Assembly (NCBI GenBank): GCA_965197935.1
Contig: CBDAOD010000002.1
Coordinates: forward strand, 1,809,185-1,873,184
DNA: 64,000 nt
Source of the DNA: Vicinamibacterales bacterium
GTDB lineage: Bacteria; Acidobacteriota; Vicinamibacteria; Vicinamibacterales; CAZQMT01
Direction of reading: 5' to 3'
The notes beneath the pieces were generated by a model. It searched no databases. It was given only the letters and a program-made list of their open reading frames with translations, and was not told the DNA's origin. The translations under genes were made by a program, and so were the position numbers. Below, piece by piece: positions 3,236-59,960 of the stretch (positions within the stretch are counted from its first letter, which is position 1; the number at the start of each line of letters is the position of its first letter).

Positions 3236-3319
3236 ACGCCGAAGTCGACCCTCGTGATGGGCCGCTGAGAGCGCGCGCTAGCGTGCGCCGCTCGGGCGGT
3301 CTGGACGGAGAGACGCATC

Positions 3320-5031: not shown

Positions 5032-5038
5032 GGGCTAG

Positions 5039-6115: not shown

Positions 6116-6184
6116 CCTGGGTGCCGCGCCAGTGGGCGGCCGACCCTAACGATCCTGTGACTCTGAATCACTCGACATCTTGCC

Positions 6185-9064
6185 ATGGCTGACAAGAAGT
6201 CCGTGGGCCACGCCTACAACGTCGATTTTCTCAACGTGGTCTTCGCTGCGTCGAGCATCTTTCTCTTCGTCTGCACGATCTGGATGGTGTGGGACGACTT
6301 CGACCGCGAGTGGAAGAACTTCCAGCGACGCTTCGTCCAGCTCGAGGCGGAGGTGACGCGCGCGAGTCTCGCGCAGGCGGAGGCCGACGTCGACCAGGGG
6401 CGCCTGCAGGCGCTGGAGGCCGACCTGGCCGCGGCCCAGGGGGAGATCGTCGCGAGCCAGGAACGCGTGTCGGAGCTCGAGGCCCAGCTCGCCGACGTGA
6501 ACAACGACCTGTACCGGGTCAACCAGGACTACCAGTTCGCGAAGGCGACCTACGACGTCGACCGCTACGACTACGAGGTCCGCAAGAACGAGGACGACTC
6601 GGTGGAGACGCGCGAGGGCCCGGAGATCGCCCAGGCCTTCGCCGAGGTGACGCAGCTCAACCTGGAGGTGGAGCGGGTGACGGCCGACCGCGGTCGCCTC
6701 CGGGCGGAGCTCGGCACGCTGACCGGGCGCGTCGGTGAGATCGAGACCGAGCTGCGGACGCTGAACAGCGAGAAGATCCGGCTCGAGGACCGAATCGTGG
6801 CGCTGGAACCCAGCCTGGTCAACGACCTGGTCCTGAACGCCCCGCTGCTGGATTTCATGGCACCGACGATCCGGGTTCAGCAGATCATCACGCCCAACAT
6901 CGTCGACGACGTCAACTTCACGCGCGTGCTCAAGATGGACCGGTGCACGACCTGCCACCTGTCCATCGACCGGGAAGGATACGAGGAGTATCCGCAGCCG
7001 TTCACGACACATCCGAATCTGGATGTGTATCTCGGTAGCGCGTCGCCACATCCCATGGACCAGGTCGGCTGCACCGTCTGCCACGAGGGCATGGGGCAGT
7101 CGGTGACCTTCCGGGACGCGTCTCATACTCCGCCCGACTCGCACTGGGCGCACGACGGCGAGGAGACGGCGCGATGGGAGGAGGAGCACGGCTGGGCGGA
7201 ACCCCACCTGTGGGACTACCCCATGCTGCCGACCCAGATGACCGAGGCGTCGTGCGCGAAGTGTCACGACGCCCAGGCGCACGTGCCGGAGGCCGGTACG
7301 CTGAACCTGGCCAACGGTCTCTACGAGCGGGCGGGCTGCTACGCCTGCCACAAGAGCGAAGGGTTCGAGGGGCTCCGCAAGCCCGGTCCTGACCTCACCA
7401 GAATCGATTCCAAGCTCACCCGAGACTGGGTCGCCAACTGGATCCGTGAGCCGCGCGCGATCAAGTCGAGCACGTGGATGCCGCGGGTCTGGTACAACGG
7501 GAACAGCTCCGCGCCCGAGGACGCGCCGCGCAACGAGGCGGAGATCGACGCGACGGTCGCCTACCTGTTCGCCAATAGCATGCCGCACGAGTTGGAGGTG
7601 GCATCGCCGCCCGCCGGCGACGCCGCGCGCGGTGAGGCGTTGGTCGCGGCGGTCGGCTGTCTCGCGTGCCACGTCACGGACGAGACGAGCCGCCTCGAAG
7701 CCGGCCCGCGGCGCACCTTCGGGCAGCCGCTCCAGAGCGTCGGCAGCAAGACCACCTACGAGTGGCTCTACAACTGGGTACGCAACCCGGTTCACTACTC
7801 CGCGGACACCTACATGCCCGACATGCGGCTGACCGATGACGAAGCCGCCGATGTCGCCGCCTATCTGTCGTCGATGACCGGGTCGGGCGGAGAGGACGCG
7901 CGGGCGACCTACGACGAGTCGGTCATCGACGACGCCCTGCTCGACTACCTCAAGACCGTCATGTCCACGGAGGAGGCCACCGGCACGATCGGCGGGATGG
8001 ACCGCGAGGCCAAGATGCTCGATCTGGGCCAGCGTGCGATCGCGCGCTACGGGTGCTACAGCTGCCACGAGATCGAGGGCTTCGAGGACGTTCAGCCGAT
8101 CGGGATCGAGCTCTCCGAGGAGGGCAGCAAGCTGGTCACGCAGCTCGACTTCCAGTTCGTCCATATCCCGCACACGAAGACGGCCTGGTTCCGTCAGAAG
8201 ATGCTCGAGCCCCGGAGCTTCGACCAGAACCGCGTGCTCGTGCCGATGGACAGGCTGCGGATGCCGAACTACGGCCTGTCCGAAGAGGAGGCGGAGCTGT
8301 TCGTCACCGCGATCATGAGTTTCCAGCGCGAGGTCCAGCCCGCGGAGGCGATGCCCGCCGGGTCGGCTCGGCTCGACGCGCTGGTGGCGGGTCGCAACCT
8401 GACCCGGCGACGGAACTGCGTGGCGTGCCATGAGATCGAGGGGGACGGGGGCGACTACAAGACCCTGCTCGAGGATGCCTCGCTCGCGCCGCCGCTGCTC
8501 ACGCCGCAGGGCGCGAAGGTCCAGCCAGACTGGATGTACGCCTTCTTCCACAACGTGATTCCGATCCGGCCCTGGCTCGACGTGCGGATGCCCTCCTTCC
8601 CGCTGGATGACGCGGACTGGAACGAGGCGATCCGCTATTTCCAGGCCATGTCGGATGTGGTCGGACCGTTCAGGACGCAGCAACGATTCACGGCGGCCGA
8701 CGCGCGCGGCGGCGAGGAGCTCTTCGAGCTGCTACAGTGCCAGCGGTGTCACGTCCTCGATACGATCCCCGAGGGCCAGCCCACCGAGAACCTGGCGCCC
8801 GACCTCAGGATGACGCCCGAGCGACTGCAACCCGACTGGCTGTTGACGTGGCTGGTGTCGCCCCTGGCGATCCAGCCGGGCACGCGGATGCCGGCGTACT
8901 GGCCCGATTTCCCCGAGACCTTCTATGAGCAGCTCGACGGTGACGCGGAGGCGCAGATTCGGGCCATCCGTAACCATCTGATGACCTTCCGGGGAGCGCC
9001 CAGTCCGATGGAGGGCACGCGGACGGGGACCTATCTGGCCCCGACCACGTCGGCGAACGAGTAG
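6185..9064 (+). CDS. membrane-anchored multihaem cytochrome c (8 CxxCH) with long N-terminal coiled coil
   Basis: Eight CxxCH motifs read directly: CTTCH, CTVCH, CAKCH, CYACH, CLACH, CYSCH, CVACH, CQRCH. Five are followed by distal MP (Met-ligand-like) motifs. N-terminal TM helix, then about 200 aa of heptad-like Glu/Leu/Arg-rich sequence. Confidence 0.85.
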   Translation: MADKKSVGHAYNVDFLNVVFAASSIFLFVCTIWMVWDDFDREWKNFQRRFVQLEAEVTRASLAQAEADVDQGRLQALEADLAAAQGEIVASQERVSELEAQLADVNNDLYRVNQDYQFAKATYDVDRYDYEVRKNEDDSVETREGPEIAQAFAEVTQLNLEVERVTADRGRLRAELGTLTGRVGEIETELRTLNSEKIRLEDRIVALEPSLVNDLVLNAPLLDFMAPTIRVQQIITPNIVDDVNFTRVLKMDRCTTCHLSIDREGYEEYPQPFTTHPNLDVYLGSASPHPMDQVGCTVCHEGMGQSVTFRDASHTPPDSHWAHDGEETARWEEEHGWAEPHLWDYPMLPTQMTEASCAKCHDAQAHVPEAGTLNLANGLYERAGCYACHKSEGFEGLRKPGPDLTRIDSKLTRDWVANWIREPRAIKSSTWMPRVWYNGNSSAPEDAPRNEAEIDATVAYLFANSMPHELEVASPPAGDAARGEALVAAVGCLACHVTDETSRLEAGPRRTFGQPLQSVGSKTTYEWLYNWVRNPVHYSADTYMPDMRLTDDEAADVAAYLSSMTGSGGEDARATYDESVIDDALLDYLKTVMSTEEATGTIGGMDREAKMLDLGQRAIARYGCYSCHEIEGFEDVQPIGIELSEEGSKLVTQLDFQFVHIPHTKTAWFRQKMLEPRSFDQNRVLVPMDRLRMPNYGLSEEEAELFVTAIMSFQREVQPAEAMPAGSARLDALVAGRNLTRRRNCVACHEIEGDGGDYKTLLEDASLAPPLLTPQGAKVQPDWMYAFFHNVIPIRPWLDVRMPSFPLDDADWNEAIRYFQAMSDVVGPFRTQQRFTAADARGGEELFELLQCQRCHVLDTIPEGQPTENLAPDLRMTPERLQPDWLLTWLVSPLAIQPGTRMPAYWPDFPETFYEQLDGDAEAQIRAIRNHLMTFRGAPSPMEGTRTGTYLAPTTSANE

Positions 9065-28465: not shown

Positions 28466-29152
28466 ATGCTCTCTAGATTGCATACTGCTGGGTGCTGGCT
28501 CGCCGCCAGCGCGTTGACCATCGTGGCCGCCTCGGCGTGCCGGACCGCCGGTGTCGAACCGGGCGTGGCATCTGGTGTCGAAACCGACCCGCGGATCGTG
28601 CAGCCGGGAGTCCCGGGGGAGCCGGGTCGAGTGATCGGCGTTGACGAGGCGGTCGATCTCTCGCGGGTCCAGCACACGGCGGCCGACGTGCGATTCATGC
28701 AGGGGATGATCGGCCATCACGCGCAGGCGCTGGAGATGGCCGCCCTGATGCCCTCTCGGACGCGCCGGCAGGACATGCGGCTACTGGGCCAGCGGATCGA
28801 CGTGTCGCAGGCGGACGAGATCAATATGATGCTGGACTGGCTGAAGATTCGCGGCCAGGAGGTCCCGAGCTTGGACGCGCACCACGCGCACGGCGCGATG
28901 CTGATGCCGGGCATGCTCACCGCGGAGGAAATGGATCGTCTGGCGGCGGCGACGGGCACCGAGTTCGTTCGGCTCTTCCTCGAGTTCATGATCAAGCATC
29001 ATGAGGGGGCCCTGCTCATGGTGGAGGAGCTCTTCGCCAGCCCAGGCGCGGGTCAGGAGACGGAGATCTTCGCGTTCTCGGCCGACGTGGATGCCGATCA
29101 ACGCATGGAGATCGACCGGATGCGTGCGATGCTAGGCTCGATCCAAAGATAA
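28466..29152 (+). CDS. DUF305-family (ferritin-like four-helix) exported protein
   Basis: Duplicated F...MI.HH.GA motif (FMQGMIGHHAQALEM and FMIKHHEGALLM). Signal/lipobox-like N-terminus. Confidence 0.8.
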   Translation: MLSRLHTAGCWLAASALTIVAASACRTAGVEPGVASGVETDPRIVQPGVPGEPGRVIGVDEAVDLSRVQHTAADVRFMQGMIGHHAQALEMAALMPSRTRRQDMRLLGQRIDVSQADEINMMLDWLKIRGQEVPSLDAHHAHGAMLMPGMLTAEEMDRLAAATGTEFVRLFLEFMIKHHEGALLMVEELFASPGAGQETEIFAFSADVDADQRMEIDRMRAMLGSIQR

Positions 29153-31332: not shown

Positions 31333-32100
31333 TCAGCGCACGGCGACCAGCGCCGGCGAGTCGAACACGGCATCCGGCAGGTCGTTCGTGACGACGATGT
31401 CCGTCATCCGGATCGCGATCGTTCCATCCAGAGCCTCCCGGATTGTCGACATCATCAAGCCGTTGTACTCCTCCCACCCCTTCCACCGGAACTCACCTTC
31501 GGCTCCTCGCCCCAGTCGGTACTTCCATCGATCGACTAGGTGCGTCTCCGGGTTGACATACACCCACCCAGAACTCGTCTCCCGACGTATCGATGTCCTC
31601 GAAGCTCAGATGCAAGGTGTCGTACGTGATTCCGTCGAGCGTGTCCCGTCCGTCGTGCCGGAGGGTCACGTGGGGATCCCGGAGCTTGTACGGCGCCAGG
31701 AGCCAGTAGGTCTCGCCCTTCCAGACCCGGAACGCTCGGTTGAGATACTCGTCGAGGATCTCGCCCTGGAGAGGCCGCCCGCCAGGTACGCATGACCCTG
31801 CTTCGTGTTCACGTTCATCAGGACGACATAGGGCCGTCCGTCCTCGGCCGTGGCGTCGAGACGAGACCGACCCGACCACTTGTCCCACGTGAGTTTCAAC
31901 GCGGTCTCGCCACGCAGGAACGTGAAGCGAATATAGCGGGTCCCCTCCCACGCGTCTCGGCCGCCGAGCGCCGTCAAGGCCAGGTCGGCGATCTCGGCAG
32001 CCTTCCGCGCCGAGGCCGTGGACTGCGCTGCGGCGCCCGTGGTGGCGACCAGGAGCGCCGCCAGAACGAACGCGGTGGGGCCAGCCGATGAACGCTCCAT
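31333..32100 (-). pseudogene. secreted conserved hypothetical protein broken into three frames
   Basis: A signal peptide ORF (from ATG 32100, RBS GAGGA) continues sensibly in a second frame at about 31800 (..GHAYLAGG|RPLQGEILDEYL..) and a third frame at about 31560 (..GDEFWVG|VYVNPETHL..). Confidence 0.6.
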
Positions 32101-32167
32101 GCTGTGTGTCCTCAGGCGACCGGGCACAATCCTGGTCAGAAAGGCCCTCACTACCCCGGTGCTCGTC

Positions 32168-33100
32168 CTATTGCTCGATGGGGACCTCTTGGTCGTTGCC
32201 CCACTCCTGCCAGGAGCCATCGTAGTTACCAAGGCTGTCATAACCCAGAAGACGAAGCGTTAGGTACGTCACCGACGACCTCTGACCGGTCTGTCAGTAC
32301 GCGTGGAGTCGCTTGTCTCTGGTGATGCCTGCCGATGTGTAGATCTCGGTTAGCTCGGCTGGTGGCTTGAAGACCGGCACCTCTCCTTCGGTGAAGTTCT
32401 CCCGCCAGTCGATGTTGATGGCTCCGGGGATATGGCCGCCCCGTGCGGACCGGACGCTCTCACCCCGGTGCTCTTCCGGAGAGCGCGCGTCGACCATCGC
32501 CACGTCCTCCCGACCGAGGTCCGCCAGGAGGCTCTGCTTCGTGGAGAGCCTGTCCGGCCGAGGCTCGACGGTGAACGTCACGGGAGTGATGTCTGGCGTT
32601 TCGGTTCTGACGTCGCGTCCCTCCGCCTCCCACTTGGTGAAGCCGCCGTCGAGCACCGAGACGTTGGGATGACCGTAGTATTCGAGCGTCCAGAAGACTC
32701 TCGGCGCCGCCGTGCTCCGTCCCTCGTCGTGGACGATCACGTGAGCGGTCTCGTCGATTCCCCCGGCGCCGAAGAGGGCGGCGATGTGATCCGGCCGTCC
32801 GACGATGCTCCCCAACTCCTCCGGGTCGAACGTGGCGGCGCGTGGGATGTTCACCGCCCCGGGAACGTGTCCGGCCTGATACGCCTCCGCGTCGCGAGTA
32901 TCCACGATACGCACGTCGGTGTCGTCGAGATGGGCGGCCAGCCATTCGGTCTCGACCAGCAGGCCGGGATTGGCGAAGCGTATCGGTTGTGCCTCGGACA
33001 CCGGAGCGGGCACTTGCTCGGGGCGACAGCCTCCGGAAACGAGCGCCAGCGGCATCACCACCGCTGGCAGTATCCACGCCACCCGTCTAGCCTCCACCAT
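32168..33100 (-). CDS. two-domain rhodanese (thiosulfate/3-mercaptopyruvate sulfurtransferase-like) lipoprotein with in-frame TGA at the catalytic position; candidate selenoprotein or fresh nonsense pseudogene
   Basis: RBS GAGGAGG before ATG 33100 and lipobox LVSGGC. The N-terminal domain is inactive (HDEGRS). The C-terminal domain reads ...[52 protein letters not shown]. The TGA (32296-32294) sits at the C of CxxGxR(S/T). Confidence 0.6.
32262..32281 (-). promoter_or_regulatory. candidate bacterial SECIS apical hairpin
   Basis: The mRNA reads AGGUCGUC-GGU-GACG(U)ACCU, starting 12 nt after the UGA. It has an 8-bp stem, one bulged U and a G/U-containing loop. Confidence 0.4.
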
Positions 33101-33406
33101 TGATCCTCCTCGAGGGACGACAAGATGGATTCTACCAGGAAGACAGAAAGACGCGTGCTCTTTGGGCGGGCGCCAAGGAGGGGTCCAACAGCCGGCATCG
33201 CCGGGTGCGTCGTCTGCTATGCTCATGGCAAGCTCCGTCGCAAGATCGAAGCTCGCGTCCTGGAAAAATCAGTCTTCGCAACCGAGGGCCATTGTTCCAA
33301 GCACGCAGATCGTGTCGCCCTGATTGCCGCAGTCGTGAGTTTCGGAGGGCGCGATGCCCGATCCTGAGAATCGGCATCGGCCGCGAAGCGGCCGGAAAGG
33401 CCCGGG

Positions 33407-34485: not shown

Positions 34486-34590
34486 CGGAGGGTGAGCGAA
34501 ACTTAGTTGGAAATTGAAACGGCTCCCACACCCTGTGGTTTGATGACGTTAAGCAAAACGGCCATCAACCCACGAGAGAAAGGAGCCGAG

Positions 34591-35870
34591 ATGAGCAGTG
34601 TCCTACGTCCTGTCAGGAAGCGCAAGAAGGGTCGCAAGCTGGGCCGGGTCGAGGTCATCCGGCGCGAGGACTACACCGCGCTGGAGCTGGACGCCAAGGT
34701 GGAGCTGATCCGCTCGCTGGTCCCGCTGGGCTTGATGCACGTGGAGGAGGTGCTCGACGAGGAGGTAACGGCGCTGGCTGGCGAGCGCTACGCCCGCAAG
34801 GCCGCGTCGATCGGGGGCCGCCGGCACGGTAGCAACCCTGGGACCGTCGGCCTGGCGGGGCAGCGGGTGCCGATTCGGGTGCCGCGGGTGCGCGGGGTCG
34901 CGGGGCGGGAGATTCCGTTGCGCGCCTACGAGGCGTTGCATGGCGACGGCGCGGTGAATGACCTCCTGCTGAAGCGCGGGCTCTATGGGATCTCGTGTCG
35001 CAACTACGAGGCGGCCGCCGAGGCGATTCCCGGCGCGATCGGGCTGTCGGGGTCGACGGTGTCCCGAGGCTTCATCGAGGCCAGCGCCGCGAAGCTTCAC
35101 GAGCTCCAGGAGCGGGACCTGGCCGCTGAGGACGTCGTGGCCATCGTATTGGACGGCAAGACGTTCGCCGAGGCCACAATGGTCATCGCACTGGGCATCA
35201 CCATTTCTGGGGCGAAACACTTCCTCGGCTTCGTGGAGACGGACACGGAGAATGAGCGGGTGCTGACGCTGTGCTTGCGGTCGTTGGTCGAGCGGGGCTG
35301 GACCTCTCGCAGGGCCTGCTGGTGATCCTCGACGGCAGCAAGGGGCTGCGGGCAGCCGTCCGGAAGACCTTCCGCCACCGCGCCCTGGTCCAACGGTGCC
35401 AGTGGCACAAGCGGGAGAACGTGGTGAGTCACCTGGCCAAGAGCGAACTGGCGGCGTGGCGTCAGCGCCTCCAGCGCGCCTACAACCGGCCGGAGTACGA
35501 CGAGGCCCTCACGGCGCTCAAGACGCTCCAGGGCGAGCTCGACGAACGGAACCAGTCGGCGGCTCGGAGCTTGACAGAAGGTCTGGACGAAACCTTAACG
35601 CTGCATCGCCTCGGGCTGTACGGGGTGCTGGGCCGGTCGCTGAAGACGACGAACTGTCTGGAGTCGGTCAATGCGCTCGTTGAGGAACGCTGTGCGAAGG
35701 TTGACCACTGGCAGAACTCGAGCCAACGCCACCGCTGGCTGGCGACCGCGCTCCTGGACATCGAGCCGCGCCTGCGGAAGCTGATGGGCTACCGCCACCT
35801 GCCCACGCTTCGTGCCGCGTTGAAGCAAGAACTGAAGATCGACACGACGACATCGAAGAAGGCCGCATGA
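34591..35870 (+). pseudogene. IS256-family (mutator-type) transposase, one frameshift in a G4 run
   Basis: RBS AAAGGAG before the ATG. LDGKTF...DG.KGL...VQRCQWHKRENV signature. The frame changes at GAGCGGGGCTGG (35294-35297), where one extra G would restore ..VERGLDLSQGLLVILDG.. Confidence 0.8.
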
Positions 35871-35897
35871 CGAATCCGGAGCCGTAGAGAGTTTCAA

Positions 35898-36055
35898 TTG
35901 AGTCTCCCTCGCCTGAAGGCGAGGGAATCAGTGCGCCGCGTCGGCTGAAGCCGACTATCACGGCGCACGTCCCAGAGCCCGAAGAGGTCCGGCCCTGCGG
36001 CCTCCTGAAGGCTTCGCCTAAAGGCGAGGGGTTTCACCCATCCCAGAGGGAGACT
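35898..36055 (-). mobile_element. 158-bp TSD-less, CTTAG-specific non-autonomous element (copy 1)
   Basis: Absent from the otherwise identical right end of IS256 copy 2 (GTTTCAA|CTAAG). 100% identical to 58440-58597 and 62992-63149. Confidence 0.85.
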
Positions 36056-36075
36056 CTAAGAATGGGCTTGACTCG

Positions 36076-37332
36076 CTCGAGGCCTTCAAGGCGTGCTTCG
36101 GCCATCGCGCACAGGAGCTGGCGTTGCGCCGGTACGTCCAGGGGTTGCTCAGCGACAGCCCGCGCAAGTCGATGGAAGCGATGCTGGCGCGGGGGACCGA
36201 TCCCTGGGGCTATCAAGCGTTCCAACACTTCATCACCGATGCGCCGTGGAGTGCCGACGGCGTCTGGCGCTGCCTGCGGGCGGTGCTGCCCGAACGCGAA
36301 GGGCTGGTGATCTTCGCTGGCACGAGTTTCCCCAAGCCAGGGACGTCCTCGGTCGGGGTGGCCCGCCAGTACTGTGGGGCCGTGGGGAAAGTCGCCAATG
36401 GCCAAGTGGCGGTCACCGCGGCGCCGTGGACCGGGCTGCGCGCCTACTTGCTGGGGGCCGCGCTCTATGTGCCCGAGGCGTGGCTGACCGACGCCGCCCG
36501 CGATCGGGCGCGGCTTCCCCGGGGTGTCCGGTTGCAGGCGAAGTGGCGCCAAGCGCTCACCCTGCTCCGGCAGGTGCGCGCCAGCGGCCTCACCGGCACC
36601 GGCGTGCTGGCCGATGCGGAGTTTGGCGATACCGGCCTGTTTCGGGCCATGTGGCATCGGTTGCGGCTCCCCTATGCGGTGGGGATTTCCTCGTCGCAGA
36701 CCGTGTTCCTGGGGCGGCCGCGCCTCGGGCACCGGCGGGGCGGCCGGCTGGGGCGCCCGCGCACCCGGCCAGACCTGGCGGCGGGCGTGCGGGCGTACAC
36801 GGTGGCCCAGGCCGCCAAGGCGCAGCCGCGGTGGCGGCCCATCAGCTGGCGCAACCGCCGCGGCGGGCGCCGCTGGACGGTCCAGTGTGTGGCCCTGCGG
36901 GTGACCCCGGCCCACGACTGGCGCGACCGCCGGCTCGCCCCCGAGGTGTGGCTGCTGGCCGAACGCGACACGGGCGCGACGCCGCGGACCAAATACTTCT
37001 TCGTCAACCTGCCGGCCACCACCTCCTGGCCGCAGCTCGTCCGACTCGCGCATCAGCGGTGGGCCATCGAGCAGCAGTTCCAAGAGTTGAAGCCCCACCT
37101 CGGGTTGGATCACTTCGAAGGCCGCACGTTCCCGGGCTGGCACCATCACGTCGTGCTCACCGCCGTGACGTACAACTTCCTGCAGGCCGAGCGGCGGCGG
37201 CACCTCGCCGGGCTCACCTTTCCAGTGGCCCGCGCGATCGTGCAGGAAATCTTCACCGCGTACCTCTTTGCTCCACGGCCGTTCTACCTGAACCGCATCG
37301 AGGCGCTAAAGTCGGTGCAATTGCGGATCTAA
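36076..37332 (+). pseudogene. IS701-like (IS4 superfamily) DDE transposase, 5'-truncated
   Basis: LEAFKACFGHRAQELALRRYVQGLLSDSPRKS... through to HQRWAIEQQFQELKPHLGLDHFEGRTFPGWHHH (IS701-type C-terminal motif). The reading frame is open up to the IS256 boundary with no start codon. Confidence 0.7.
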
Positions 37333-37610
37333 CAAAGTAGTACTAGCTGGGTGTCAAGTGCCGGCTAGGGCTAGAGCCGTTCCCCTACCATCGGCGCGAA
37401 GTAGTCGTACAATACACCCTTTCACAACGGCGTCCTGGCTACTCCGTCATCCGCGACGCTCTGGCCATTGCGACACGTCTGCGCCGCCCTGCGATAGTCG
37501 TGGTGAAGCCTGTCCCTACCGGAAACCCGATCGGCATGGGAAGGGCCTCAGATTGCGTACGAGGAGCGTCGCCAACCCGCGGCTCCCAGTCCCCTCAGTC
37601 CGGGGCGCCA

Positions 37611-38747
37611 GTGGTGTGTATCCTAAATACCTTTACATTTGAATGACCCGAATGCTATAACGGCTCTGTGAATAGGGCCGCGGTGGCTCTGCCGGTCGAC
37701 GACGAGGATCGGTACCTGCTTGAACAGTGGGCGCGCAGCGCGTCGGCGCCGCATCGCGTGGTCATCCGGGCCCAGGGCCTCTTGATGGCGACGGCCGGGG
37801 TCGCCAATAGCCGCATTGCGACCGCCCTGGGCGTCAGCCGACCGACCGTGCTGGACTGGCGCCGGCGCTTTCTGGAGGACGGCCTCGACTCGGTCGTGGA
37901 GATCCGTGAGGGGCGGGGGTGCAAACCGGCGATCACGGCCCGCAAGGTCAAAGCCATCGTCCACGCCACGCTGCACCGCACGCCGCCGGGGGCCACGCAC
38001 TGGAGCTGTCGCACGATGGCAACGGCGCAGGGGGTCAGTCACGCGACCGTGCAGCGGGTCTGGGACGCGCATGGGCTCCAACCCCACCGAGCGACGACGT
38101 TCAAGCTGTCGACTGACCCCGCCTTCGTGGAAAAGCTGACGGACATCGTCGGGCTGTACATGAATCCGCCCGATAAGGCCGTGGTGTTGTGCGTGGACGA
38201 GAAGAGTCAGATTCAAGCGCTGGACCGCACTCAGCCCGGGCTCCCGATGAAGACAGGCCGCTGCGGAACGCTCACGCATGACTACAAGCGACACGGCACG
38301 ACGACCTTGTTCGCCGCCTTGAGTATGCTGGACGGCACGGTCATCGGCGAATGCCACGGTCGACACCGGCATCAGGAGTTCTTGAAATTCCTGCGCACAC
38401 TGCACCGAACTTTCCCGCGCCGTCGGGACCTGCACCTCATCCTGGACAATTACGGCACCCATAAGCATCCGAAGGTGCGCGCGTGGCTGGCGGCCCACCC
38501 GCGCTTCCAACTCCATTTCACTCCCACTGGCGCGTCGTGGCTGAACCTCGTCGAAAGCTGGTTCAGCCAGCTGACGCAGAAACGCCTTCGCCGAGGAGTG
38601 TTTCGCAGTGTGCATGAGTTAGTCGCCGCTATCGAAGCGTATCTGCAGCACTACAACAAGAACCCCACGCCCTTCGTCTGGACCGCCACCGCCGACGCCA
38701 TACTGCAGAAGGTCGGGAAGTGTAAAGTCATTCTTGAGACACACCAC
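37611..38747 (+). mobile_element. IS630-family insertion sequence, copy 2 (apparently intact)
   Basis: Terminal inverted repeats GTGGTGTGTATCC... and ...GAGACACACCAC. Single 360-aa ORF. Confidence 0.8.
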
Positions 38748-38750
38748 TAG
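37668..38750 (+). CDS. IS630-family DDE transposase
   Basis: HTH N-terminus, then [22 protein letters not shown] and [12 protein letters not shown] motifs. GTG start. Confidence 0.88.
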   Translation: MNRAAVALPVDDEDRYLLEQWARSASAPHRVVIRAQGLLMATAGVANSRIATALGVSRPTVLDWRRRFLEDGLDSVVEIREGRGCKPAITARKVKAIVHATLHRTPPGATHWSCRTMATAQGVSHATVQRVWDAHGLQPHRATTFKLSTDPAFVEKLTDIVGLYMNPPDKAVVLCVDEKSQIQALDRTQPGLPMKTGRCGTLTHDYKRHGTTTLFAALSMLDGTVIGECHGRHRHQEFLKFLRTLHRTFPRRRDLHLILDNYGTHKHPKVRAWLAAHPRFQLHFTPTGASWLNLVESWFSQLTQKRLRRGVFRSVHELVAAIEAYLQHYNKNPTPFVWTATADAILQKVGKCKVILETHH

Positions 38751-41852: not shown

Positions 41853-43298
41853 CTAGGTGCCGCAAAAAGTTTCGTGGACGATTTCTTCTGGTCGCGGTGG
41901 CGTTTCGAGATCGGCGTATTCGACCTGCTCAGTGTAGGGCACGGTGAGCGCCTCGACGAGACGGTGGAACGGGGCATAGTCGCCACGATAGGCGTCCTGG
42001 ATGGCCTGCTCGACGCGGTGATTGCGCGGAATCCGGATCGGGTTGGCCGCACGCATGTCGGCGAGGTGCTCGGCGGGGTCCGCTTCGCCACGCCATTTGG
42101 CGAACCACTCCTCAAAAGGCTCGCTATTGGAAAACATCGCCGCAAGCGTTTCAGAATCCTCTCCACCGGCGACGCATGTCAGCTGACGGAAGAAGAGGGT
42201 GAAATCGACCCCTTGCGCGCCGAGTAGATCGAGACACTCCTTCGCGAGCTCGACTGGGGCCTCGGGTGGGAGGCCGAACTTTGCCCGGAAGCGGGCGATA
42301 TATTGGTTGCCGAATCGCTCAGGGTATCCGGAGAGGGCAGCTTCCGCGATCTTGGTCGCTCTACTGGGATCCGCAGACAACAATGGCAGCAAGGTTTCCG
42401 CGAAACGGGTGAGGTTCCAGAGCCCGATGTCGGGCTGGTTGCCCCAGGCATAGCGCCCACCGGAGTCGATGGAGCTGAAGACGCACTGCGCGTGGAACGC
42501 GTCCATGAACGCGCACGGGCCATAGTCGATCGTCTCCCCAGAAATGGCGGTGTTGTCCGTATTCATCACACCGTGGATGAAGCCGAGAGACATCCACTGA
42601 GCGATCAGATCCGCCTGGGCAGCCGCGACAGACTCGAGCAAAGCCACATAGGGCTCTAGTGCATCGGTGGCACCCGGGTAGTGTCGAGCGATGGAGTGAT
42701 CGGCGAGCAGTCGCAGGGCATCGATATCGCTGCGTGCGAGAAAATACTGAAAAGTCCCGACGCGAATGTGACTGGCCGCCACGCGGGTCAACACGCCGCC
42801 GAGAAGCAGCCCTTCTTGGCGCATGACGGTTTCGCCGGTGGTAACCGCGGCGAGCGCCCGTGTCGTGGGAACCCCGAGCGCGGCCATGGCTTCGCTGACA
42901 ATGTATTCGCGGACCACCGGGCCGAGCGCGGATTTACCATCGCCGCGCGAGAATGGCGTGCGTCCTGAGCCCTTCAGCTGCAGATCGCGACGTACGCCGT
43001 CGGTGTCGATGACTTCGCCGAGCAGGATAGCGCGGCCGTCGCCGAGTTGTGGAGAGAATCCACCGAACTGGTGGCCAGCGTAGGCTTGCGCAATCGGCTC
43101 GGCACCCTCGGGAATCGCATTACCCGCGAGCATCGCGACGCCGTCAGGTGATTCCAGCCAGTCGTTGTCGATCAAGAGGTTTGTCGCTAGTTCGCGATTG
43201 AGACAGATCAGCTTCGGTTCCTGAACAGGGGCGGGTTCCTGTTTGGCGAAGAAACGTTCGGGCAGCTGGGCGTAGGTGTTGTCGAAGGGAATGTTCAT
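41853..43298 (-). CDS. selO: protein adenylyltransferase SelO (YdiU family pseudokinase-fold AMPylase)
   Basis: 481 aa. YAGHQFG, LGDGRA and [14 protein letters not shown]-like motifs. Ends ..ETFCGT (Cys, no TGA). Lower GC than its surroundings. Confidence 0.9.
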
Positions 43299-52857: not shown

Positions 52858-52896
52858 GGGCCCGTCGGCGGGTCCCGGGGCTGCTACACTGGGCGC

Positions 52897-53445
52897 ATGT
52901 CGATCTTCCGCTTCCTCGGGGGCGCGCTGGGTAGTCAGCGGACCGACGAGACCGAGACTCAGACGGAGACGGTCCGCAAGATCACCCAGGCGCTCGATCG
53001 TCTCGACCCCGACCGCGCCCGCTATCTCGCCACCTTCGCCTACATCCTGGGCCGCATCGCGCACGCCGACTCCCACGTGTCAGCAGAGGAGAGCCACGAG
53101 ATGGAGCGCATCCTCGTTCAGCAGGGGGAGCTGCCCGAGGAGCAGGCGATCATCGTGGTCCAGATGGCCAAGACGCAGAATGCCCTGTTCGGCGGCACCG
53201 AGAACTTCCTGGTCACGCGGGAGTTCGCCCGGCTCGCGACCCGGGAGCAGAAGATGGCCCTGCTCCACTGCCTGTTCGCGGTCTCGTCTTCGGACGACGC
53301 CATCGACACGGTCGAGGACAACGAGATTCGGCGGATCGTCCAGGAGGTTGGGCTGGAGCACGCGGACTTCATCGCGGTCCGCACGATCTTCCGCCGGCAC
53401 CTGTCCGTGCTGCGCCCGACCTCGGAGCCCACCCGGGTAGAGTGA
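52897..53445 (+). CDS. TerB-family (tellurite-resistance/DjlA N-domain-like) protein
   Basis: Two helical repeats with AHADSHVSAEE and SSSDDAIDTVEDNEI acidic metal-binding-like motifs. Confidence 0.65.
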   Translation: MSIFRFLGGALGSQRTDETETQTETVRKITQALDRLDPDRARYLATFAYILGRIAHADSHVSAEESHEMERILVQQGELPEEQAIIVVQMAKTQNALFGGTENFLVTREFARLATREQKMALLHCLFAVSSSDDAIDTVEDNEIRRIVQEVGLEHADFIAVRTIFRRHLSVLRPTSEPTRVE

Positions 53446-53475
53446 GGGTGGCACGAGCCCCGAGACCGGTATCCA

Positions 53476-54638
53476 TCAGCCGCCCAGGAGTCGCGCCACC
53501 GCCCAGTAGCCACCGACCGCCGCAATAATCGCCGAGGCGGGGATCACGATCCGGTCGCGATACCACGCCCGGCGGTGGAACCAGCCGACCGCCAGGAAGG
53601 CCAGGCCGATGACGGCGAGCTGGCCCAGCTCGACCCCGAGATTGAACGTCACCAGCGCGGTGACGAAGCGGCCGGCCGGGAGTCCCAGGTCACGCAAGAC
53701 TCCGGCGAACCCCAGTCCGTGGAGGAGACCGAAGCCGAAGACGACCAGCGCACGCCAGGGCTTGAGCTCCGACATCAGCATGTTCTCGACCGCCACGTAC
53801 GCGATCGACACGGCGATCAGCGGCTCCACGACCGTCGGCGGCAGCGACACCACACCGTACATCGACAGGGCGAGCGTCAGCGTGTGCGCCACGGTGAAGG
53901 CCGTGACCTGCCAGAGCAGCGGCGCCAGCCGGGCGCTCAGCAGATACAACCCGAGCACGAAGAGGATGTGGTCGAGCCCCTTCGGCAGAATGTGCTCGAA
54001 TCCCAGCGACAGGTACTCTCGCGCCACGGTCAGCCACGCGGAGGTGACGGGCGCCCGGTCGGAGGCGGTAGGGTCGGCTGTCCTCGACCGGACGCAGGAT
54101 TTCCTCGTATACCTCTCCGCCGTCGTCCTGTCGGATCCGCAGGACGACGAGGTTGAACACCGGTGATGGGGTGAACACGAACTCGCGGGCACCCAGTGGG
54201 ACCGATCCGCTCAACCGCACCAGATGACCGGGCAAGGCATCCCCATCGGCGTCGTCATCGCCGCGAGCGGCGACATCCATGTTGGGGAAGCCAACCTCCG
54301 GGGTTGCCTTCTCGCCGTCGAACCGGACGTCGGTCATGACGATGAAGAAGCGGCGCACCAGCTCGAGGCGGCGCTCGATCTCCTCGGGCGTGAAGCCACG
54401 CAGCGTCGCGTACTGCTGCTCGGTGAGGTCGCCGAGGGGCACCTCGGCCAGCATGGCGTCCACGTGGAACGTGATGTCCACCCGATAGCTGACATCACGC
54501 CCGTGGCGCGTGAAGACCGACGTCGACCTCGGTGATCTCGAAGGGGTGGGCCCCTACCGGCCCCGCGCAGAGCGCCAGGAGCGCCATCACGAGGAGTCCG
54601 GAAATCGGGCCGGCTCGGCCGTCGCCACGCGATATCAT
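53476..54638 (-). pseudogene. HupE/UreJ-family membrane protein with N-terminal periplasmic domain, two frameshifts
   Basis: The signal peptide ORF (MISRGD..GAHPFEITEVDV) continues in another frame (VFTRHGRDVSYRVDITFHVDAML...) at about 54520. It shifts again at about 54075 into the HupE core (LSLGFEHILPKGLDHILFVL...). Confidence 0.6.
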
Positions 54639-54769
54639 GGCCGGATGATCCGCAGATCCCGCATTGTCCCACACACGCGGATGACGGCCGTCGCGCCTCG
54701 CTCGAGACGTGCCCGTGCCACCCAGCCGCCGTCGATGCGCACCCGCACAGGCGAGGCACCTGGCGACCG

Positions 54770-54815
54770 ATGAAGCGGGTGCTGTTCGCCTGCGTACACA
54801 ACGCGGCCGGTCCGC
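54770..54815 (+). pseudogene. 15-codon 5' remnant of an arsC-like gene
   Basis: ATGAAGCGGGTGCTGTTCGCCTGCGTACACAACGCGG parallels the start of arsC at 57922 (MK.VLFACVHNAGRS). Similarity is then lost. Confidence 0.45.
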
Positions 54816-54877
54816 CAGCCCGGACTTCAGCACGGTTCTTCGCCGGCCTGCTAGTTGGCGTCTAGGAGAGAAGCTGA

Positions 54878-55870
54878 ATGAACTCGAACAAGTTGCTCCT
54901 GAAAGGTCTTCGTCATGTGTTCCCAGTTATTTCGCCGCTGTTGGCCGCTGGCCTGGTACCAACGTCGCTCCACGCGCAACCAACCGTGACGCCGGCGGTC
55001 ACCGGCTGGTCGCTCAACACCACGAGCGCCAAGGGCACGAGCTCGAATGCCGCCGTGAATGCCGTCTTGAGTCAGATCGACGCGGATATTCAGCAGATCC
55101 GACACAACGACACCGACGTCTACATCAACGCGACGGGCGTTCCTTCCTATTCAATCGGGCCCTGGGTCAACCCCGCTGTCGCGACGAACCGTAACTTCTT
55201 GATACGGGTTCCCAAGACCCCACAGGAGCAACTGGGCCCCAAGACCGCCACAGCCCTCGGCGCGATCGGCCAGTGGGTCAACGGCGTCCCGATCTACAAC
55301 GCTTGGGACGGACTATGCTTTGATGCCGCCTGCAACTGGCAACGTGACGCGACCGTGTGGGAGTTGGCCGGCCAGGACGCCGCCAACGGACATCCGGCTC
55401 CAGTGGCCGGGGGCACGCCGATTGGCGGCTTTGAGGAAGGTGAATACCATCATCACTTCAATCCGACCTCGCTGCGGACGCAGTTGGGGGACAATGGCAC
55501 GTCTCACTCACCGATCTTGGGCTTCGCCTACAACGGGTTCCCGGTCTACGGCCCCTTTGGGTTCGCCAACGCCGACGGGACGGGAGGAGTCGTGCGGATG
55601 GAGAGCAGCTACCGGCTCAAGACCGGGCCGCGGCCCACTGGGCCCAACGATCCAGGCGGGACGTACGACGGCTCGTATCTTCAGGACTGGGAATATGTCG
55701 CCGGGCTCGGCCACCTCAACGAGCACAACATGCGCTTCGCCGTCACCCCGGAATACCCCGGCGGAACCCAGGCCTACTATCTGACCCTCAATTCCGGTCT
55801 GACGACGATGTACCCTCACATCGTCGGCCCCAATTACTTCGGCGTGGTCGTTGCGGAAAACCTCAGCTAG
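54878..55870 (+). CDS. secreted YHYH-domain protein
   Basis: Signal peptide. GHPAP...EYHHHF, GFAYNGFPVYGP and HLNEHNMRF..TPEYPGGTQAYY motifs. Confidence 0.7.
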   Translation: MNSNKLLLKGLRHVFPVISPLLAAGLVPTSLHAQPTVTPAVTGWSLNTTSAKGTSSNAAVNAVLSQIDADIQQIRHNDTDVYINATGVPSYSIGPWVNPAVATNRNFLIRVPKTPQEQLGPKTATALGAIGQWVNGVPIYNAWDGLCFDAACNWQRDATVWELAGQDAANGHPAPVAGGTPIGGFEEGEYHHHFNPTSLRTQLGDNGTSHSPILGFAYNGFPVYGPFGFANADGTGGVVRMESSYRLKTGPRPTGPNDPGGTYDGSYLQDWEYVAGLGHLNEHNMRFAVTPEYPGGTQAYYLTLNSGLTTMYPHIVGPNYFGVVVAENLS

Positions 55871-58356: not shown

Positions 58357-58439
58357 ACTCGGTCGATTCTTCCCCGCCTGATAGTCCGTGGCGCCTGTCT
58401 CCGGCGCCCACTGGCTCACGGAGGGTGAGCGAAACTTAG

Positions 58440-58597
58440 AGTCTCCCTCTGGGATGGGTGAAACCCCTCGCCTTTAGGCGAAGCCTTCAGGAGGCCGCAG
58501 GGCCGGACCTCTTCGGGCTCTGGGACGTGCGCCGTGATAGTCGGCTTCAGCCGACGCGGCGCACTGATTCCCTCGCCTTCAGGCGAGGGAGACTCAA
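58440..58597 (+). mobile_element. 158-bp TSD-less, CTTAG-specific non-autonomous element (copy 2)
   Basis: Interrupts GCGAAACTTAG|TTGGAAATTG, which is uninterrupted in IS256 copy 1 (34496-34516). Confidence 0.85.
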
Positions 58598-58681
58598 TTG
58601 GAAATTGAAACGGCTCCCACACCCTGTGGTTTGATGACGTTAAGCAAAACGGCCATCAACCCACGAGAGAAAGGAGCCGAG

Positions 58682-59960
58682 ATGAGCAGTGTCCTACGTC
58701 CTGTCAGGAAGCGCAAGAAGGGTCGCCAGCTGGGCCGGGTCGAGGTCATCCGGCGCGAGGACTACACCGCGCTGGAGCTGGACGCCAAGGTGGAGCTGAT
58801 CCGCTCGCTGGTCCCGCTGGGCTTGATGCACGTGGAGGAGGTGCTCGACGAGGAGGTAACGGCGCTGGCTGGCGAGCGCTACGCCCGCAAGGCCGCGTCG
58901 ATCGGGGGCCGCCGGCACGGTAGCAACCCTGGGACCGTCGGCCTGGCGGGGCAGCGGGTGCCGATTCGGGTGCCGCGGGTGCGCGGGGTCGCGGGGCGGG
59001 AGATTCCGTTGCGCGCCTACGAGGCGTTGCATGGCGACGGCGCGGTGAATGACCTCCTGCTGAAGCGCGGGCTCTATGGGATCTCGTGTCGCAACTACGA
59101 GGCGGCCGCCGAGGCGATTCCCGGCGCGATCGGGCTGTCGGGGTCGACGGTGTCCCGAGGCTTCATCGAGGCCAGCGCCGCGAAGCTTCACGAGCTCCAG
59201 GAGCGGGACCTGGCCGCTGAGGACGTCGTGGCCATCGTATTGGACGGCAAGACGTTCGCCGAGGCCACAATGGTCATCGCACTGGGCATCACCATTTCTG
59301 GGGCGAAACACTTCCTCGGCTTCGTGGAGACGGACACGGAGAATGAGCGGGTGCTGACGCTGTTCTTGCGGTCGTTGGTCGAGCGGGGCTGGACCTCTCG
59401 CAGGGCCTGCTGGTGATCCTCGACGGCAGCAAGGGGCTGCGGGCAGCCGTCCGGAAGACCTTCCGCCACCGCGCCCTGTCCAACGGTGCCAGTGGCACAA
59501 GCGGGAGAACGTGGTGAGTCACCTGGCCAAGAGCGAACTGGCGGCGTGGCGTCAGCGCCTCCAGCGCGCCTACAACCGGCCGGAGTACGACGAGGCCCTC
59601 ACGGCGCTCAAGACGCTCCAGGGCGAGCTCGACGAACGGAACCAGTCGGCGGCTCGGAGCTTGACAGAAGGTCTGGACGAAACCTTAACGCTGCATCGCC
59701 TCGGGCTGTACGGGGTGCTGGGCCGGTCGCTGAAGACGACGAACTGTCTGGAGTCGGTCAATGCGCTCGTTGAGGAACGCTGTGCGAAGGTTGACCACTG
59801 GCAGAACTCGAGCCAACGCCACCGCTGGCTGGCGACCGCGCTCCTGGACATCGAGCCGCGCCTGCGGAAGCTGATGGGCTACCGCCACCTGCCCACGCTT
59901 CGTGCCGCGTTGAAGCAAGAACTGAAGATCGACACGACGACATCGAAGAAGGCCGCATGA
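58682..59960 (+). pseudogene. IS256-family transposase, two frameshifts
   Basis: Same G4-run shift as copy 1 (59385-59388), plus loss of one G at 59478 (CCCTGTCC versus CCCTGGTCC). Confidence 0.8.

What the first reader, a model, noticed from the sequence alone, without database searches (positions are those of the whole stretch)
32168..33100. In-frame TGA at the catalytic cysteine position of a rhodanese, with a SECIS-like hairpin: candidate selenocysteine sulfurtransferase
**Seen in the sequence**
- The ORF track ends this two-domain rhodanese at TGA 32296-32294 (...RDKRLHAY-stop).
- The same frame then continues for 41 sense codons, [41 protein letters not shown], and ends at TAG 32170-32168.
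- That places TGA at the first position of the rhodanese active-site loop C-x-x-G-x-R-(S/T), here [TGA]-Q-T-G-Q-R-S.
- The downstream codons encode the normal end of the catalytic domain (YDGSW.EW).
- Without readthrough the protein has no nucleophile.
- Twelve nt after the UGA the mRNA can fold as AGGUCGUC-GGU-GACG(U)ACCU (32281-32262). It has an 8-bp stem, a bulged U and a G/U-containing loop.
- The extension also closes an otherwise unexplained 190-nt gap to the next gene. The gap is 67 nt when the extension is included.

**Established knowledge**
- The hairpin geometry is the one described for the SelB-binding apex of E. coli fdhF/fdnG SECIS elements.
- Rhodanese-related sulfurtransferases appear in published computational selenoproteome surveys as a Sec/Cys family.

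**Alternative**
- It could be a very recent TGC/TGT->TGA nonsense mutation, since this region holds several pseudogenes. Those, however, are indels, not substitutions.
Basis: partly seen in the sequence, partly recalled or inferred. Interest (0 to 1): 0.8.

Follow-up and report, generated by a model that had tools for sequence, protein, structure and literature searches.

The report
Selenocysteine rhodanese gene, miscalled as truncated
The in-frame TGA is almost certainly a real selenocysteine codon in an exported two-domain rhodanese sulfurtransferase, which belongs to a selenoprotein family predicted since 2005 but routinely annotated as a truncated protein.

Summary

- **The gene.** A minus-strand gene (33100 to 32168) encodes a two-domain rhodanese. 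TGA 32296-32294 sits exactly on the catalytic cysteine. Forty-one conserved sense codons follow, and a 20-nt hairpin starts 12 nt after the UGA.
- **The hairpin alone proves nothing.** It folds no better than shuffled sequence (z = -0.05). About 40% of all TGA triplets in this GC-rich window pass the same bacterial SECIS criteria.
- **Comparison with relatives settles it.**
  - 37 of the 89 best protein homologs end just before the catalytic Cys.
  - 18 distinct DNA loci, from MAGs labelled as several phyla, carry TGA there with the tail conserved in frame.
  - All Sec forms make one clade, with two nested Cys reversions.
  - The six codons forming the hairpin show almost no synonymous variation. 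Every other conserved 4- or 6-fold degenerate codon varies.
  - An independent 99.7% identical contig has the same TGA.
- **What is not shown.** No compensatory base changes support the stem. selA, selB, selC and selD could not be checked in this genome.
- **Novelty.** COG2897 rhodanese-related sulfurtransferase has been a predicted selenoprotein family since the 2005 Sargasso Sea survey. This is a new member of a known kind.

The parts
32168..33100 (-). Full selenoprotein coding sequence: 310 codons including Sec269, plus the TAG stop. It encodes a two-domain rhodanese-type sulfurtransferase.
   Evidence: Translation. Pfam PF00581 with two stretches, E 1.1e-41. PDB homologs 8k55, 1uar and 1e0c align over residues 40-310.
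33104..33110 (-). Shine-Dalgarno-like AGGAGGA, 3 nt upstream of ATG 33100-33098. It supports 33100 as the start rather than the upstream ATG at 33226.
   Evidence: Read directly in the sequence. Homologs start with an equivalent signal peptide.
33026..33100 (-). Predicted lipoprotein signal peptide, [24 protein letters not shown], followed by Cys25.
   Evidence: Inferred from the sequence. A hydrophobic segment ending in [G/A/S]-C recurs in nearly all clade members, for example ...FGACRPAE...LGACRPAE and ...IFGGC. No signal-peptide predictor was run.
32621..32950 (-). N-terminal rhodanese domain (residues 51-160). It has no catalytic Cys.
   Evidence: Best Pfam stretch, residues 51-160.
32192..32533 (-). 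C-terminal catalytic rhodanese domain (approximately residues 190-303). It is interrupted by the UGA in current gene calls.
   Evidence: Second Pfam stretch. PDB alignments run through residue 310.
32294..32296 (-). UGA codon 269, the predicted selenocysteine at the catalytic nucleophile position.
   Evidence: It aligns to the catalytic Cys of 8k55 and 1uar. TGA is at the same column in 18 distinct loci, and more distant homologs have TGC or TGT there.
32276..32296 (-). Active-site loop U-Q-T-G-Q-R-S.
   Evidence: Translation. Cys-type homologs have CQTGQRS at the same place.
32262..32281 (-). SECIS-type hairpin AGGUCGUC-GGU-GACG(U)ACCU. The apical loop GGU is at 32273-32271 and the bulged U is at 32266.
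   Evidence: Fold. It is nearly invariant in 18 Sec loci, including synonymous sites. It meets all four bSECIS constraints quoted in PMC13188914.
32171..32293 (-). The 41 codons after the UGA. They encode the end of the catalytic domain ([11 protein letters not shown]).
   Evidence: Amino acids are conserved while their codons vary synonymously across Sec loci, so the region is translated.
32168..32170 (-). True stop codon, TAG.
   Evidence: Homologs end at the equivalent position...PIE[KQ]*.

Best explanation
Window 33100-32168 (minus strand) is one intact gene for a selenocysteine-containing, two-domain rhodanese-type sulfurtransferase.

**Recoding (inferred).** When the ribosome reaches UGA 32296-32294, the hairpin 12 nt downstream acts as a bacterial SECIS element. 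It has an 8-bp stem, a bulged U and a GGU apical loop centred about 22 nt after the UGA. It recruits SelB-GTP-Sec-tRNA(Sec), so Sec is inserted and translation continues 41 codons to TAG 32170-32168. This step is inferred by analogy with E. coli fdhF.

**Protein (partly inferred).** The product has an N-terminal lipoprotein-type signal peptide. It is therefore probably exported and membrane-anchored. It has an inactive N-terminal rhodanese domain and a catalytic C-terminal domain. In the catalytic loop U-Q-T-G-Q-R-S, selenium replaces the sulfur nucleophile.

**Chemistry (inferred).** Sec would take a sulfane sulfur from a donor such as thiosulfate, a persulfide or polysulfide. This would form a Se-S intermediate, which is then passed to an acceptor. 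The donor and acceptor are unknown.

**Shown here:**
- The gene structure.
- The position of the UGA on the catalytic Cys.
- Conservation of TGA, the tail and the hairpin across the clade.

**Inferred:**
- SelB-dependent decoding in this organism.
- Export of the protein.
- The chemistry of the Se-S intermediate.
For: 1. **Position.** The TGA aligns with the catalytic Cys of solved rhodaneses.
2. **Truncated homologs.** 37 of the 89 best homologs, at 50-67% identity, end at ...H-A-Y, one residue before that Cys.
3. **DNA of relatives.**
   - 18 distinct loci, including the window, have TGA there followed by an in-frame conserved tail of about 40 codons.
   - They include MAGs labelled Acidobacteriota (Marinacidobacterales), Chloroflexi and Planctomycetota.
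   - No other stop codon was seen at this column.
4. **The tail is translated.** Conserved residues after the UGA (L, R, L, L, G) use 3-4 synonymous codons each.
5. **RNA-level constraint.**
   - Codons +5 to +10 (R S S V T Y) are AGG (17 loci) or CGG (1 locus), then TCG TCG GTG ACG TAC.
   - Otherwise they show no synonymous variation.
   - All 20 other conserved 4- or 6-fold degenerate columns use 2-6 codons.
   - The third base of Leu +11, just outside the stem, varies freely.
6. **Same-contig contrast.** On the L166 contig a Sec copy keeps the hairpin. The adjacent Cys paralog, with the same RSSVTYL peptide, has three synonymous changes that break it.
7. **Phylogeny.** A neighbour-joining tree puts all Sec forms and the window in one clade, with two nested Cys forms. 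One of these (P0001, locus L162) still carries the identical hairpin with TGC.
8. **Independent sequence.** Contig L161, 99.74% identical, has the same TGA.
9. **SECIS criteria.** All four published bSECIS constraints are met: 3-nt loop, 8-bp stem, G at loop positions 1 and 2, 20-nt spacing, and MFE of -9.9 to -13.3 kcal/mol (PMC13188914).
10. **Literature.** The family is a published predicted selenoprotein family (PMC1088965, PMC2398784, PMC13188914).
Against: - **Sec machinery not found in held sequence.** No selA, selB, selD or tRNA-Sec is present in the 64-kb window or in about 1 Mb of held related loci. The rest of this genome could not be read.
- **The hairpin is not statistically distinctive alone.** z = -0.05, and the background pass rate is 40%.
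- **No compensatory changes.** The stem has 0 double-sided changes. There are only two G-U wobble changes, and three cells do not pair. The structure rests on conservation, not covariation.
- **No Rfam match.** No family matches even at E <= 10.
- **The hairpin sequence is not exclusive to Sec genes.** Some Cys-type relatives (L162, L168) keep most or all of it.
- **No experimental evidence** for selenium incorporation in this protein family was found in the papers searched.
Confidence: 0.88

Rival explanations
1. Fossil selenoprotein gene. The lineage inherited a genuine Sec-rhodanese gene but has since lost the Sec machinery. The UGA now terminates translation and the gene is a very young pseudogene.
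For: No Sec machinery gene or tRNA-Sec is in the window. The gene sits next to insertion sequences (34491-38750) and next to a downstream gene split over three frames. The neighbourhood does show decay.
Against: The hairpin is identical to the clade consensus. The 41-codon tail is intact and about 80% identical to that of L081, which is higher than the whole-protein identity of 62%. There is no sign of relaxed selection. A 64-kb window is too small for the absence of sel genes to mean anything.
Confidence: 0.07
2. Recent TGC/TGT to TGA nonsense mutation in an ordinary Cys rhodanese.
For: A single-base change would suffice. Pseudogene-like frames exist nearby.
Against: TGA is at this column in 18 distinct loci across the whole clade. 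37 truncated protein clusters show the same pattern. The window branches inside that clade.
Confidence: 0.02
3. Sequencing or assembly error at 32294-32296.
For: The related low-coverage contig L161 differs from the window by 12 single-base indels. Long-read errors therefore occur in this material.
Against: Those differences are mostly indels (12, against 2 substitutions), and none lies at the TGA. L161 carries the same TGA. All clade members carry it too.
Confidence: 0.01
4. The UGA is read through or recoded as something other than Sec, for example Trp, Gly or Cys by a suppressor tRNA or an alternative genetic code.
For: Nothing specific. It is only that the Sec machinery was not observed.
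Against: Other genes in the window end at TGA with no sign of read-through. The recoded position is specifically the catalytic Cys. A conserved hairpin sits at SECIS distance from it.
Confidence: 0.02

Closest known systems
Rhodanese-related sulfurtransferase (COG2897) selenoprotein family. It was predicted in the Sargasso Sea and GOS metagenomes (Zhang, Fomenko and Gladyshev 2005, PMC1088965; Zhang and Gladyshev 2008, PMC2398784). [quoted passage not shown]
   Same: PF00581 rhodanese domains. The best NCBIfam match is SseA-type 3-mercaptopyruvate sulfurtransferase, which is two-domain and COG2897-like. Sec replaces the catalytic Cys. The motif is U-x-x-G, here UQTG. A stem-loop with G in the apical loop follows the UGA. 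Cys homologs are widespread.
   Different: The published representatives (AACY01016424, MCY3690685.1) could not be compared at sequence level here. The lipoprotein signal, the nucleotide-invariant hairpin and the single-clade origin with Cys reversions were found here. I did not see them in the passages read.
E. coli fdhF SECIS element (the SelB-binding apical hairpin).
   Same: It lies immediately downstream of the UGA inside the coding sequence. The apical loop begins GGU. The loop starts 18 nt (fdhF) or 20 nt (window) after the UGA. One U is bulged in the upper stem.
   Different: In fdhF the loop is GGUC and the bulged U is on the 5' strand, 3 bp below the loop. In the window the loop is GGU and the bulged U is on the 3' strand, 4 bp below the loop. 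There is no sequence homology.
Tandem-domain rhodaneses with a Cys nucleophile. Examples are Azotobacter vinelandii RhdA (PDB 1e0c), Thermus rhodanese (1uar), sulfur transferase 8k55 and E. coli SseA (1urh).
   Same: Full-length alignment at E 1e-37 to 5e-47. The same two-domain layout, with the catalytic residue at the start of a six-residue loop ending in R-S. From memory, the loop UQTGQRS resembles RhdA CQTHHRS.
   Different: Sec replaces Cys. An N-terminal lipoprotein-type signal is present. It falls below the NCBIfam equivalog cut-off for 3-mercaptopyruvate sulfurtransferase, 151.6 against 250 bits.
Extracytoplasmic rhodaneses: E. coli PspE and YnjE, and Wolinella Sud (named from memory).
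   Same: Rhodanese catalytic domain outside the cytoplasm. YnjE is a weak structural-sequence hit (3ipo and 2wlr, E about 1e-15).
   Different: These use Cys and have different domain numbers. None is known to be a selenoprotein.

Membership tests
Bacterial selenoprotein gene (Sec-UGA plus bSECIS) | In-frame UGA aligned with Cys in homologs | tested here: met
   The TGA aligns with the catalytic Cys of 8k55 and 1uar. Cys-type homologs have TGC or TGT at the same column.
Bacterial selenoprotein gene (Sec-UGA plus bSECIS) | Reading frame downstream of the UGA conserved at protein level across orthologs that also carry UGA | tested here: met
   18 distinct loci carry TGA and a conserved tail of about 40 codons. 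Synonymous variation at conserved residues shows the tail is translated.
Bacterial selenoprotein gene (Sec-UGA plus bSECIS) | bSECIS model: 3-9 nt apical loop, 4-16 bp upper stem, G in the first two loop positions, 16-37 nt from UGA to loop, MFE <= -7.5 kcal/mol (PMC13188914, Fig. 2 legend) | tested here: met
   Loop GGU (3 nt), 8 bp, GG at the first two positions, 20-nt spacing, MFE -9.9 to -13.3 kcal/mol. The filter is weak here, because 40% of all TGA triplets in the window pass it.
Bacterial selenoprotein gene (Sec-UGA plus bSECIS) | SECIS structure supported by covariation | tested here: inconclusive
   97.9% of cells are paired but there are 0 compensatory changes. Four of 8 pairs never vary and two show G-U wobble changes. 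Support comes from invariant synonymous sites instead.
Bacterial selenoprotein gene (Sec-UGA plus bSECIS) | Genome encodes selA, selB, selC (tRNA-Sec) and selD | not testable with these tools
   None is in the window or in the held loci.
Bacterial selenoprotein gene (Sec-UGA plus bSECIS) | Selenium demonstrably incorporated (75Se labelling or mass spectrometry) | not testable with these tools
   This needs an experiment.
Rhodanese-related sulfurtransferase COG2897 selenoprotein family (PMC1088965; 'form 4', UxxG, in PMC13188914) | Rhodanese (PF00581) architecture of the two-domain SseA/COG2897 type | tested here: met
   Two PF00581 stretches. Best NCBIfam match is 3-mercaptopyruvate sulfurtransferase over residues 47-309. 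Tandem-domain PDB homologs align full-length.
Rhodanese-related sulfurtransferase COG2897 selenoprotein family (PMC1088965; 'form 4', UxxG, in PMC13188914) | Sec at the catalytic position with motif UxxG | tested here: met
   U-Q-T-G.
Rhodanese-related sulfurtransferase COG2897 selenoprotein family (PMC1088965; 'form 4', UxxG, in PMC13188914) | Direct sequence relationship to the published representatives (AACY01016424, MCY3690685.1) | not tested
3-mercaptopyruvate sulfurtransferase SseA (NCBIfam NF008557 equivalog) | Score at or above the curated cut-off (250 bits) | tested here: not met
   151.6 bits. It is a homolog, not an SseA equivalog.
E. coli fdhF-type SECIS | GGU(C) apical loop about 20 nt after the UGA | tested here: met
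   In fdhF the loop GGUC is at nt 22-25. In the window the loop GGU is at nt 24-26, counting the U of UGA as 1.
E. coli fdhF-type SECIS | Bulged U on the 5' strand of the upper stem | tested here: not met
   The window's bulged U (U31, window position 32266) is on the 3' strand.

The most novel reading that the evidence does not exclude
This clade is a set of lipid-anchored, extracytoplasmic selenocysteine rhodaneses. Their SECIS hairpin is so constrained that it has frozen both the RNA and the encoded peptide (R-S-S-V-T-Y) across several phyla. If the enzyme really works outside the cytoplasm through a Se-S (or Se-Se) intermediate, it could be a dedicated carrier for sulfane sulfur or selenium at the cell envelope. 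That role has not been described for any selenoprotein.
Probability: 0.15. Interest if true: 0.65.

Novelty: new member of a known kind. Interest (0 to 1): 0.38.

Why it matters
**Annotation.**
- The gene is intact, not a pseudogene or a 268-residue fragment.
- Dozens of database entries are cut at the Sec codon. They include NCBI records named simply 'sulfurtransferase' (P0011, P0018, P0035).
- No NCBIfam model reaches its cut-off for this form. A dedicated model, or the 20-nt hairpin motif, would correct these calls.

**Biology.**
- No Sec-containing rhodanese has been characterised experimentally in the literature I could search.
- A clade with an ultraconserved SECIS and natural Sec-to-Cys revertants is a convenient system. 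It could be used to ask what selenium adds to sulfur-transfer chemistry, and how a SECIS inside a coding sequence constrains protein evolution.

Tried and rejected
- **Rfam.** There were no matches at gathering thresholds over the whole window. There were none at E <= 10 over 32180-32330. Bacterial SECIS elements are heterogeneous (PMC13188914), so this is not evidence against the reading.
- **Thermodynamic significance of the hairpin.** None was found, z = -0.05. A bSECIS-like filter passes 40% of all TGA triplets in the window. I therefore dropped the hairpin as stand-alone evidence.
- **Covariation.** RNAalifold supports only the apical hairpin. Putative lower stems (CAGAC/GUCUG) are not consistent between loci. 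No compensatory changes were seen.
- **Sec machinery.**
  - ARAGORN found no tRNA in the window or in 21 Sec loci.
  - Pfam scans of 40 window ORFs found no SelA, SelB or SelD.
  - tblastn with E. coli SelA, SelB and SelD against the window and about 1 Mb of loci gave only one weak, irrelevant hit in a Cys-type locus.
  - The window's own contig could not be retrieved.
- **Other selenoprotein candidates in the window.** A scan for in-frame TGA flanked by coding-like sequence found only ordinary gene ends.
- **Conserved gene neighbourhood.** None was found. The flanking genes differ between Sec loci, so context gives no functional clue.
- **Taxonomy.** MTHFR homologs left the phylum undecided. 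The nearest named hits, at about 64-67% identity, are labelled Planctomycetota, Armatimonadota, SAR202 and Terriglobales.

Full report
**1. The observation**

On the minus strand an ORF runs from ATG 33100. An AGGAGGA Shine-Dalgarno-like motif precedes it at 33110-33104. The ORF reaches TGA 32296-32294 (...RDKRLHAY). The same frame then continues for 41 sense codons, [41 protein letters not shown], to TAG 32170-32168.

With Cys placed at the TGA, the 310-residue protein is a two-domain rhodanese (PF00581, E 1.1e-41, two stretches). It aligns end to end with solved tandem rhodaneses: 8k55 at E 5.5e-47, 1uar, 1e0c and 1urh. The printed alignments put the TGA exactly on the catalytic Cys of AYCRIGERSS (8k55) and VYCRIAERSS (1uar).

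The gap to the next start codon (ATG 32100) falls from 193 nt to 67 nt when the extension is included.

**2. The hairpin alone is not evidence**

- The 47-nt region folds at -13.3 kcal/mol. Dinucleotide shuffles average -13.2 kcal/mol, giving z = -0.05.
- I implemented the published bacterial SECIS constraints from the Fig. 2 legend of PMC13188914:
  - a 3-9 nt loop;
  - a 4-16 bp stem;
  - G in the first two loop positions;
  - 16-37 nt spacing from the UGA;
  - MFE <= -7.5 kcal/mol.
- The window's element passes all of them: loop GGU, 8 bp, 20-nt spacing.
- So do 611 of 1527 TGA triplets (40%) in this 67% GC window.
- Rfam gives no match at gathering thresholds or at E <= 10.

**3. Comparative evidence**

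*Protein homologs.* A protein search returned 4278 homologs at E <= 1e-20. Among the 89 best, excluding the frameshifted P0002, 37 end at ...H-A-Y. That is one residue before the catalytic Cys. The rest continue with C-Q-T-G-Q-R-S....

*DNA of relatives.* DNA came from species-representative genomes, from metagenomes and from contigs that encode individual hits. It shows TGA at this column in 18 distinct sequences including the window.
- These include MAGs labelled Candidatus Marinacidobacterales (L001), Chloroflexi (L002, two tandem copies) and Planctomycetota (L006).
- The set also contains a 6.8-Mb contig (L173).
- Each is followed in frame by a conserved tail of about 40 codons ending ...PIE[KQ]-stop.
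- No other stop codon occurs at this column.
- More distant homologs have TGC or TGT.

*Same organism, independent contig.* L161 is a low-coverage contig that is 99.74% identical to the window. It differs from the window by 12 single-base indels and 2 substitutions. It has the same TGA and tail.

**4. The tail is translated and the hairpin is under RNA-level selection**

I built a codon table over the 18 Sec loci.
- Conserved residues downstream of the UGA use several synonymous codons each. For example L+13, R+14, L+15, L+16 and G+17 use 3-4 codons. This is the signature of protein-level purifying selection.
- Codons +5 to +10 (R S S V T Y) are AGG in 17 loci and CGG in one, then TCG, TCG, GTG, ACG and TAC. 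There is no other synonymous variation.
- Every one of the 20 other conserved 4- or 6-fold degenerate columns in the 73-codon stretch uses 2-6 codons.
- The third base of Leu +11 is the first nucleotide past the stem. It takes all four values.
- Counting columns with a single codon gives 4 of 5 inside the hairpin against 0 of 20 outside. A Fisher exact calculation done by hand gives about 4e-4. Comparing columns within the same sequences controls for relatedness.

On the L166 contig the Sec copy keeps the hairpin. The adjacent Cys paralog encodes the same RSSVTYL peptide but uses AGG TCC TCG GTT ACC TAC, which breaks three pairs.

*Caveat.* There is no covariation. 97.9% of cells pair, there are no double-sided changes, and only two G-U wobble substitutions occur. 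RNAalifold supports only the apical hairpin, not a lower stem.

**5. Evolution**

A neighbour-joining tree used the region upstream of the Sec/Cys site. It places the window and all 37 Sec-type proteins in a single clade. Only two Cys-type proteins, P0001 and P0003, are nested inside it. The remaining 51 Cys proteins lie outside.
- P0001 (L162) has TGC followed by a hairpin identical to the Sec consensus.
- P0003 (L170) retains most of the hairpin.

Both look like recent Sec-to-Cys reversions with fossil SECIS elements. This rules out a recent nonsense mutation in the window's lineage.

**6. Comparison with E. coli fdhF**

I read fdhF from MG1655.

| Feature | fdhF | Window |
|---|---|---|
| Apical loop | GGUC | GGU |
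| Loop position (U of UGA = 1) | nt 22-25 | nt 24-26 |
| Upper stem | 6 bp | 8 bp |
| Bulged U | 5' strand | 3' strand (U31) |

The resemblance is real: a GGU loop, similar spacing and one bulged U. The geometry is not identical.

**7. The protein**

The N-terminus is [26 protein letters not shown] hydrophobic segment ending in [G/A/S]-C recurs across the clade, for example LVFGAC-RPAE, LALGAC-RPAE and FIFGGC. One member instead has a twin-arginine-like leader (P0018). I infer an exported, probably lipid-anchored enzyme. No signal-peptide predictor was run.

No NCBIfam model reaches its cut-off. The best is 3-mercaptopyruvate sulfurtransferase at 151.6 bits against a cut-off of 250.

The catalytic loop UQTGQRS resembles the RhdA-type loop (from memory). 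Substrate specificity cannot be assigned.

Gene neighbourhoods differ between loci, so they give no functional clue.

**8. What could not be shown**

- No tRNA-Sec, SelA, SelB or SelD is encoded in the window or in the roughly 1 Mb of held loci.
- The window's contig is 2.65 Mb but could not be retrieved.
- Active decoding in this particular organism is therefore inferred. The intact consensus hairpin supports it. So does a tail that is better conserved (about 80% identical to L081) than the protein as a whole (62%).

**9. What is known**

- Rhodanese-related sulfurtransferase (COG2897) was reported as a new predicted selenoprotein family in the Sargasso Sea survey, with 3 sequences and a predicted SECIS shown for AACY01016424 (PMC1088965).
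- It was seen again in GOS as 'Sulfurtransferase COG2897' (PMC2398784).
- The window's motif is UQTG.
- I found no experimental characterisation of a Sec rhodanese in the papers searched.

**10. Verdict**

This is a genuine member of a known, computationally predicted selenoprotein family that gene callers miscall as truncated. It is not a new kind of system.

The points found here are modest additions:
- the nucleotide-invariant SECIS;
- the single Sec clade with two fossil-bearing Cys revertants;
- the lipoprotein signal;
- the scale of the mis-annotation.

Interest is moderate to low.

Noticed in passing
window 34491-35897 and 58582-59987; also 35892-36060, 58435-58604 and 62987-63150: An insertion sequence of about 1.4 kb occurs twice at 99.4% identity. 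It encodes a Mutator-family (PF00872) transposase split into two overlapping ORFs (34507-35325 and 35271-35870). A segment of about 165 nt next to it recurs inverted at two other places. Two further transposase genes follow: DDE_5 at 36022-37332 and DDE_3 with HTH domains at 37647-38750.
   Followed up: partly
window 31333-32100, minus strand: The gene 67 nt downstream of the rhodanese starts MERSSAGPTAFVLAALLVATTGAAAQ and has no Pfam or NCBIfam match. It is split over three reading frames (ORFs 31666-32241, 31493-31951 and 31333-31563). The near-identical contig L161 has one extra A at window position 31775 and a longer ORF of 202 aa. At least one break may therefore be an assembly indel rather than a true pseudogene.
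   Followed up: partly
L162:4179 (protein P0001) and L170:8760 (protein P0003): Two Cys-type rhodaneses nested inside the Sec clade still carry the SECIS hairpin sequence after TGC. It is identical in L162 and partly retained in L170. They appear to be fossil SECIS elements left by recent Sec-to-Cys conversions.
   Followed up: partly
L002:3796 and L002:5084; L166:1211 and L166:2317: Tandem paralogous rhodanese genes occur on single contigs. In the Chloroflexi MAG locus L002 both copies have TGA. In L166 one copy has TGA with the hairpin, and the other has TGC with the hairpin decayed at three synonymous sites.
   Followed up: partly
proteins P0011, P0018, P0035 (NCBI records); L176:10811-10915 and L177:1690-1794: Public annotations truncate these selenoproteins at the UGA and name them plain 'sulfurtransferase'. 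In some contigs the 34-residue C-terminal piece is called as a separate small gene.
   Followed up: no
window 41853-43298, minus strand: A full-length SelO protein adenylyltransferase homolog is present (PF02696, E 5e-107). Despite its name it is not part of the Sec insertion machinery.
   Followed up: no
window 3278-9064, plus strand: A respiratory gene cluster. It holds a Rieske protein, a split cytochrome b (N-terminal part at 4216-5031, C-terminal part at 5039-6115) and a 959-residue multi-haem cytochrome c (6185-9064).
   Followed up: no
window 28466-29152 and 52858-55870: Several genes look related to metal or metalloid handling: DUF305, TerB (tellurite resistance family), HupE/UreJ and a YHYH protein. 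No link to the rhodanese was established.
   Followed up: no
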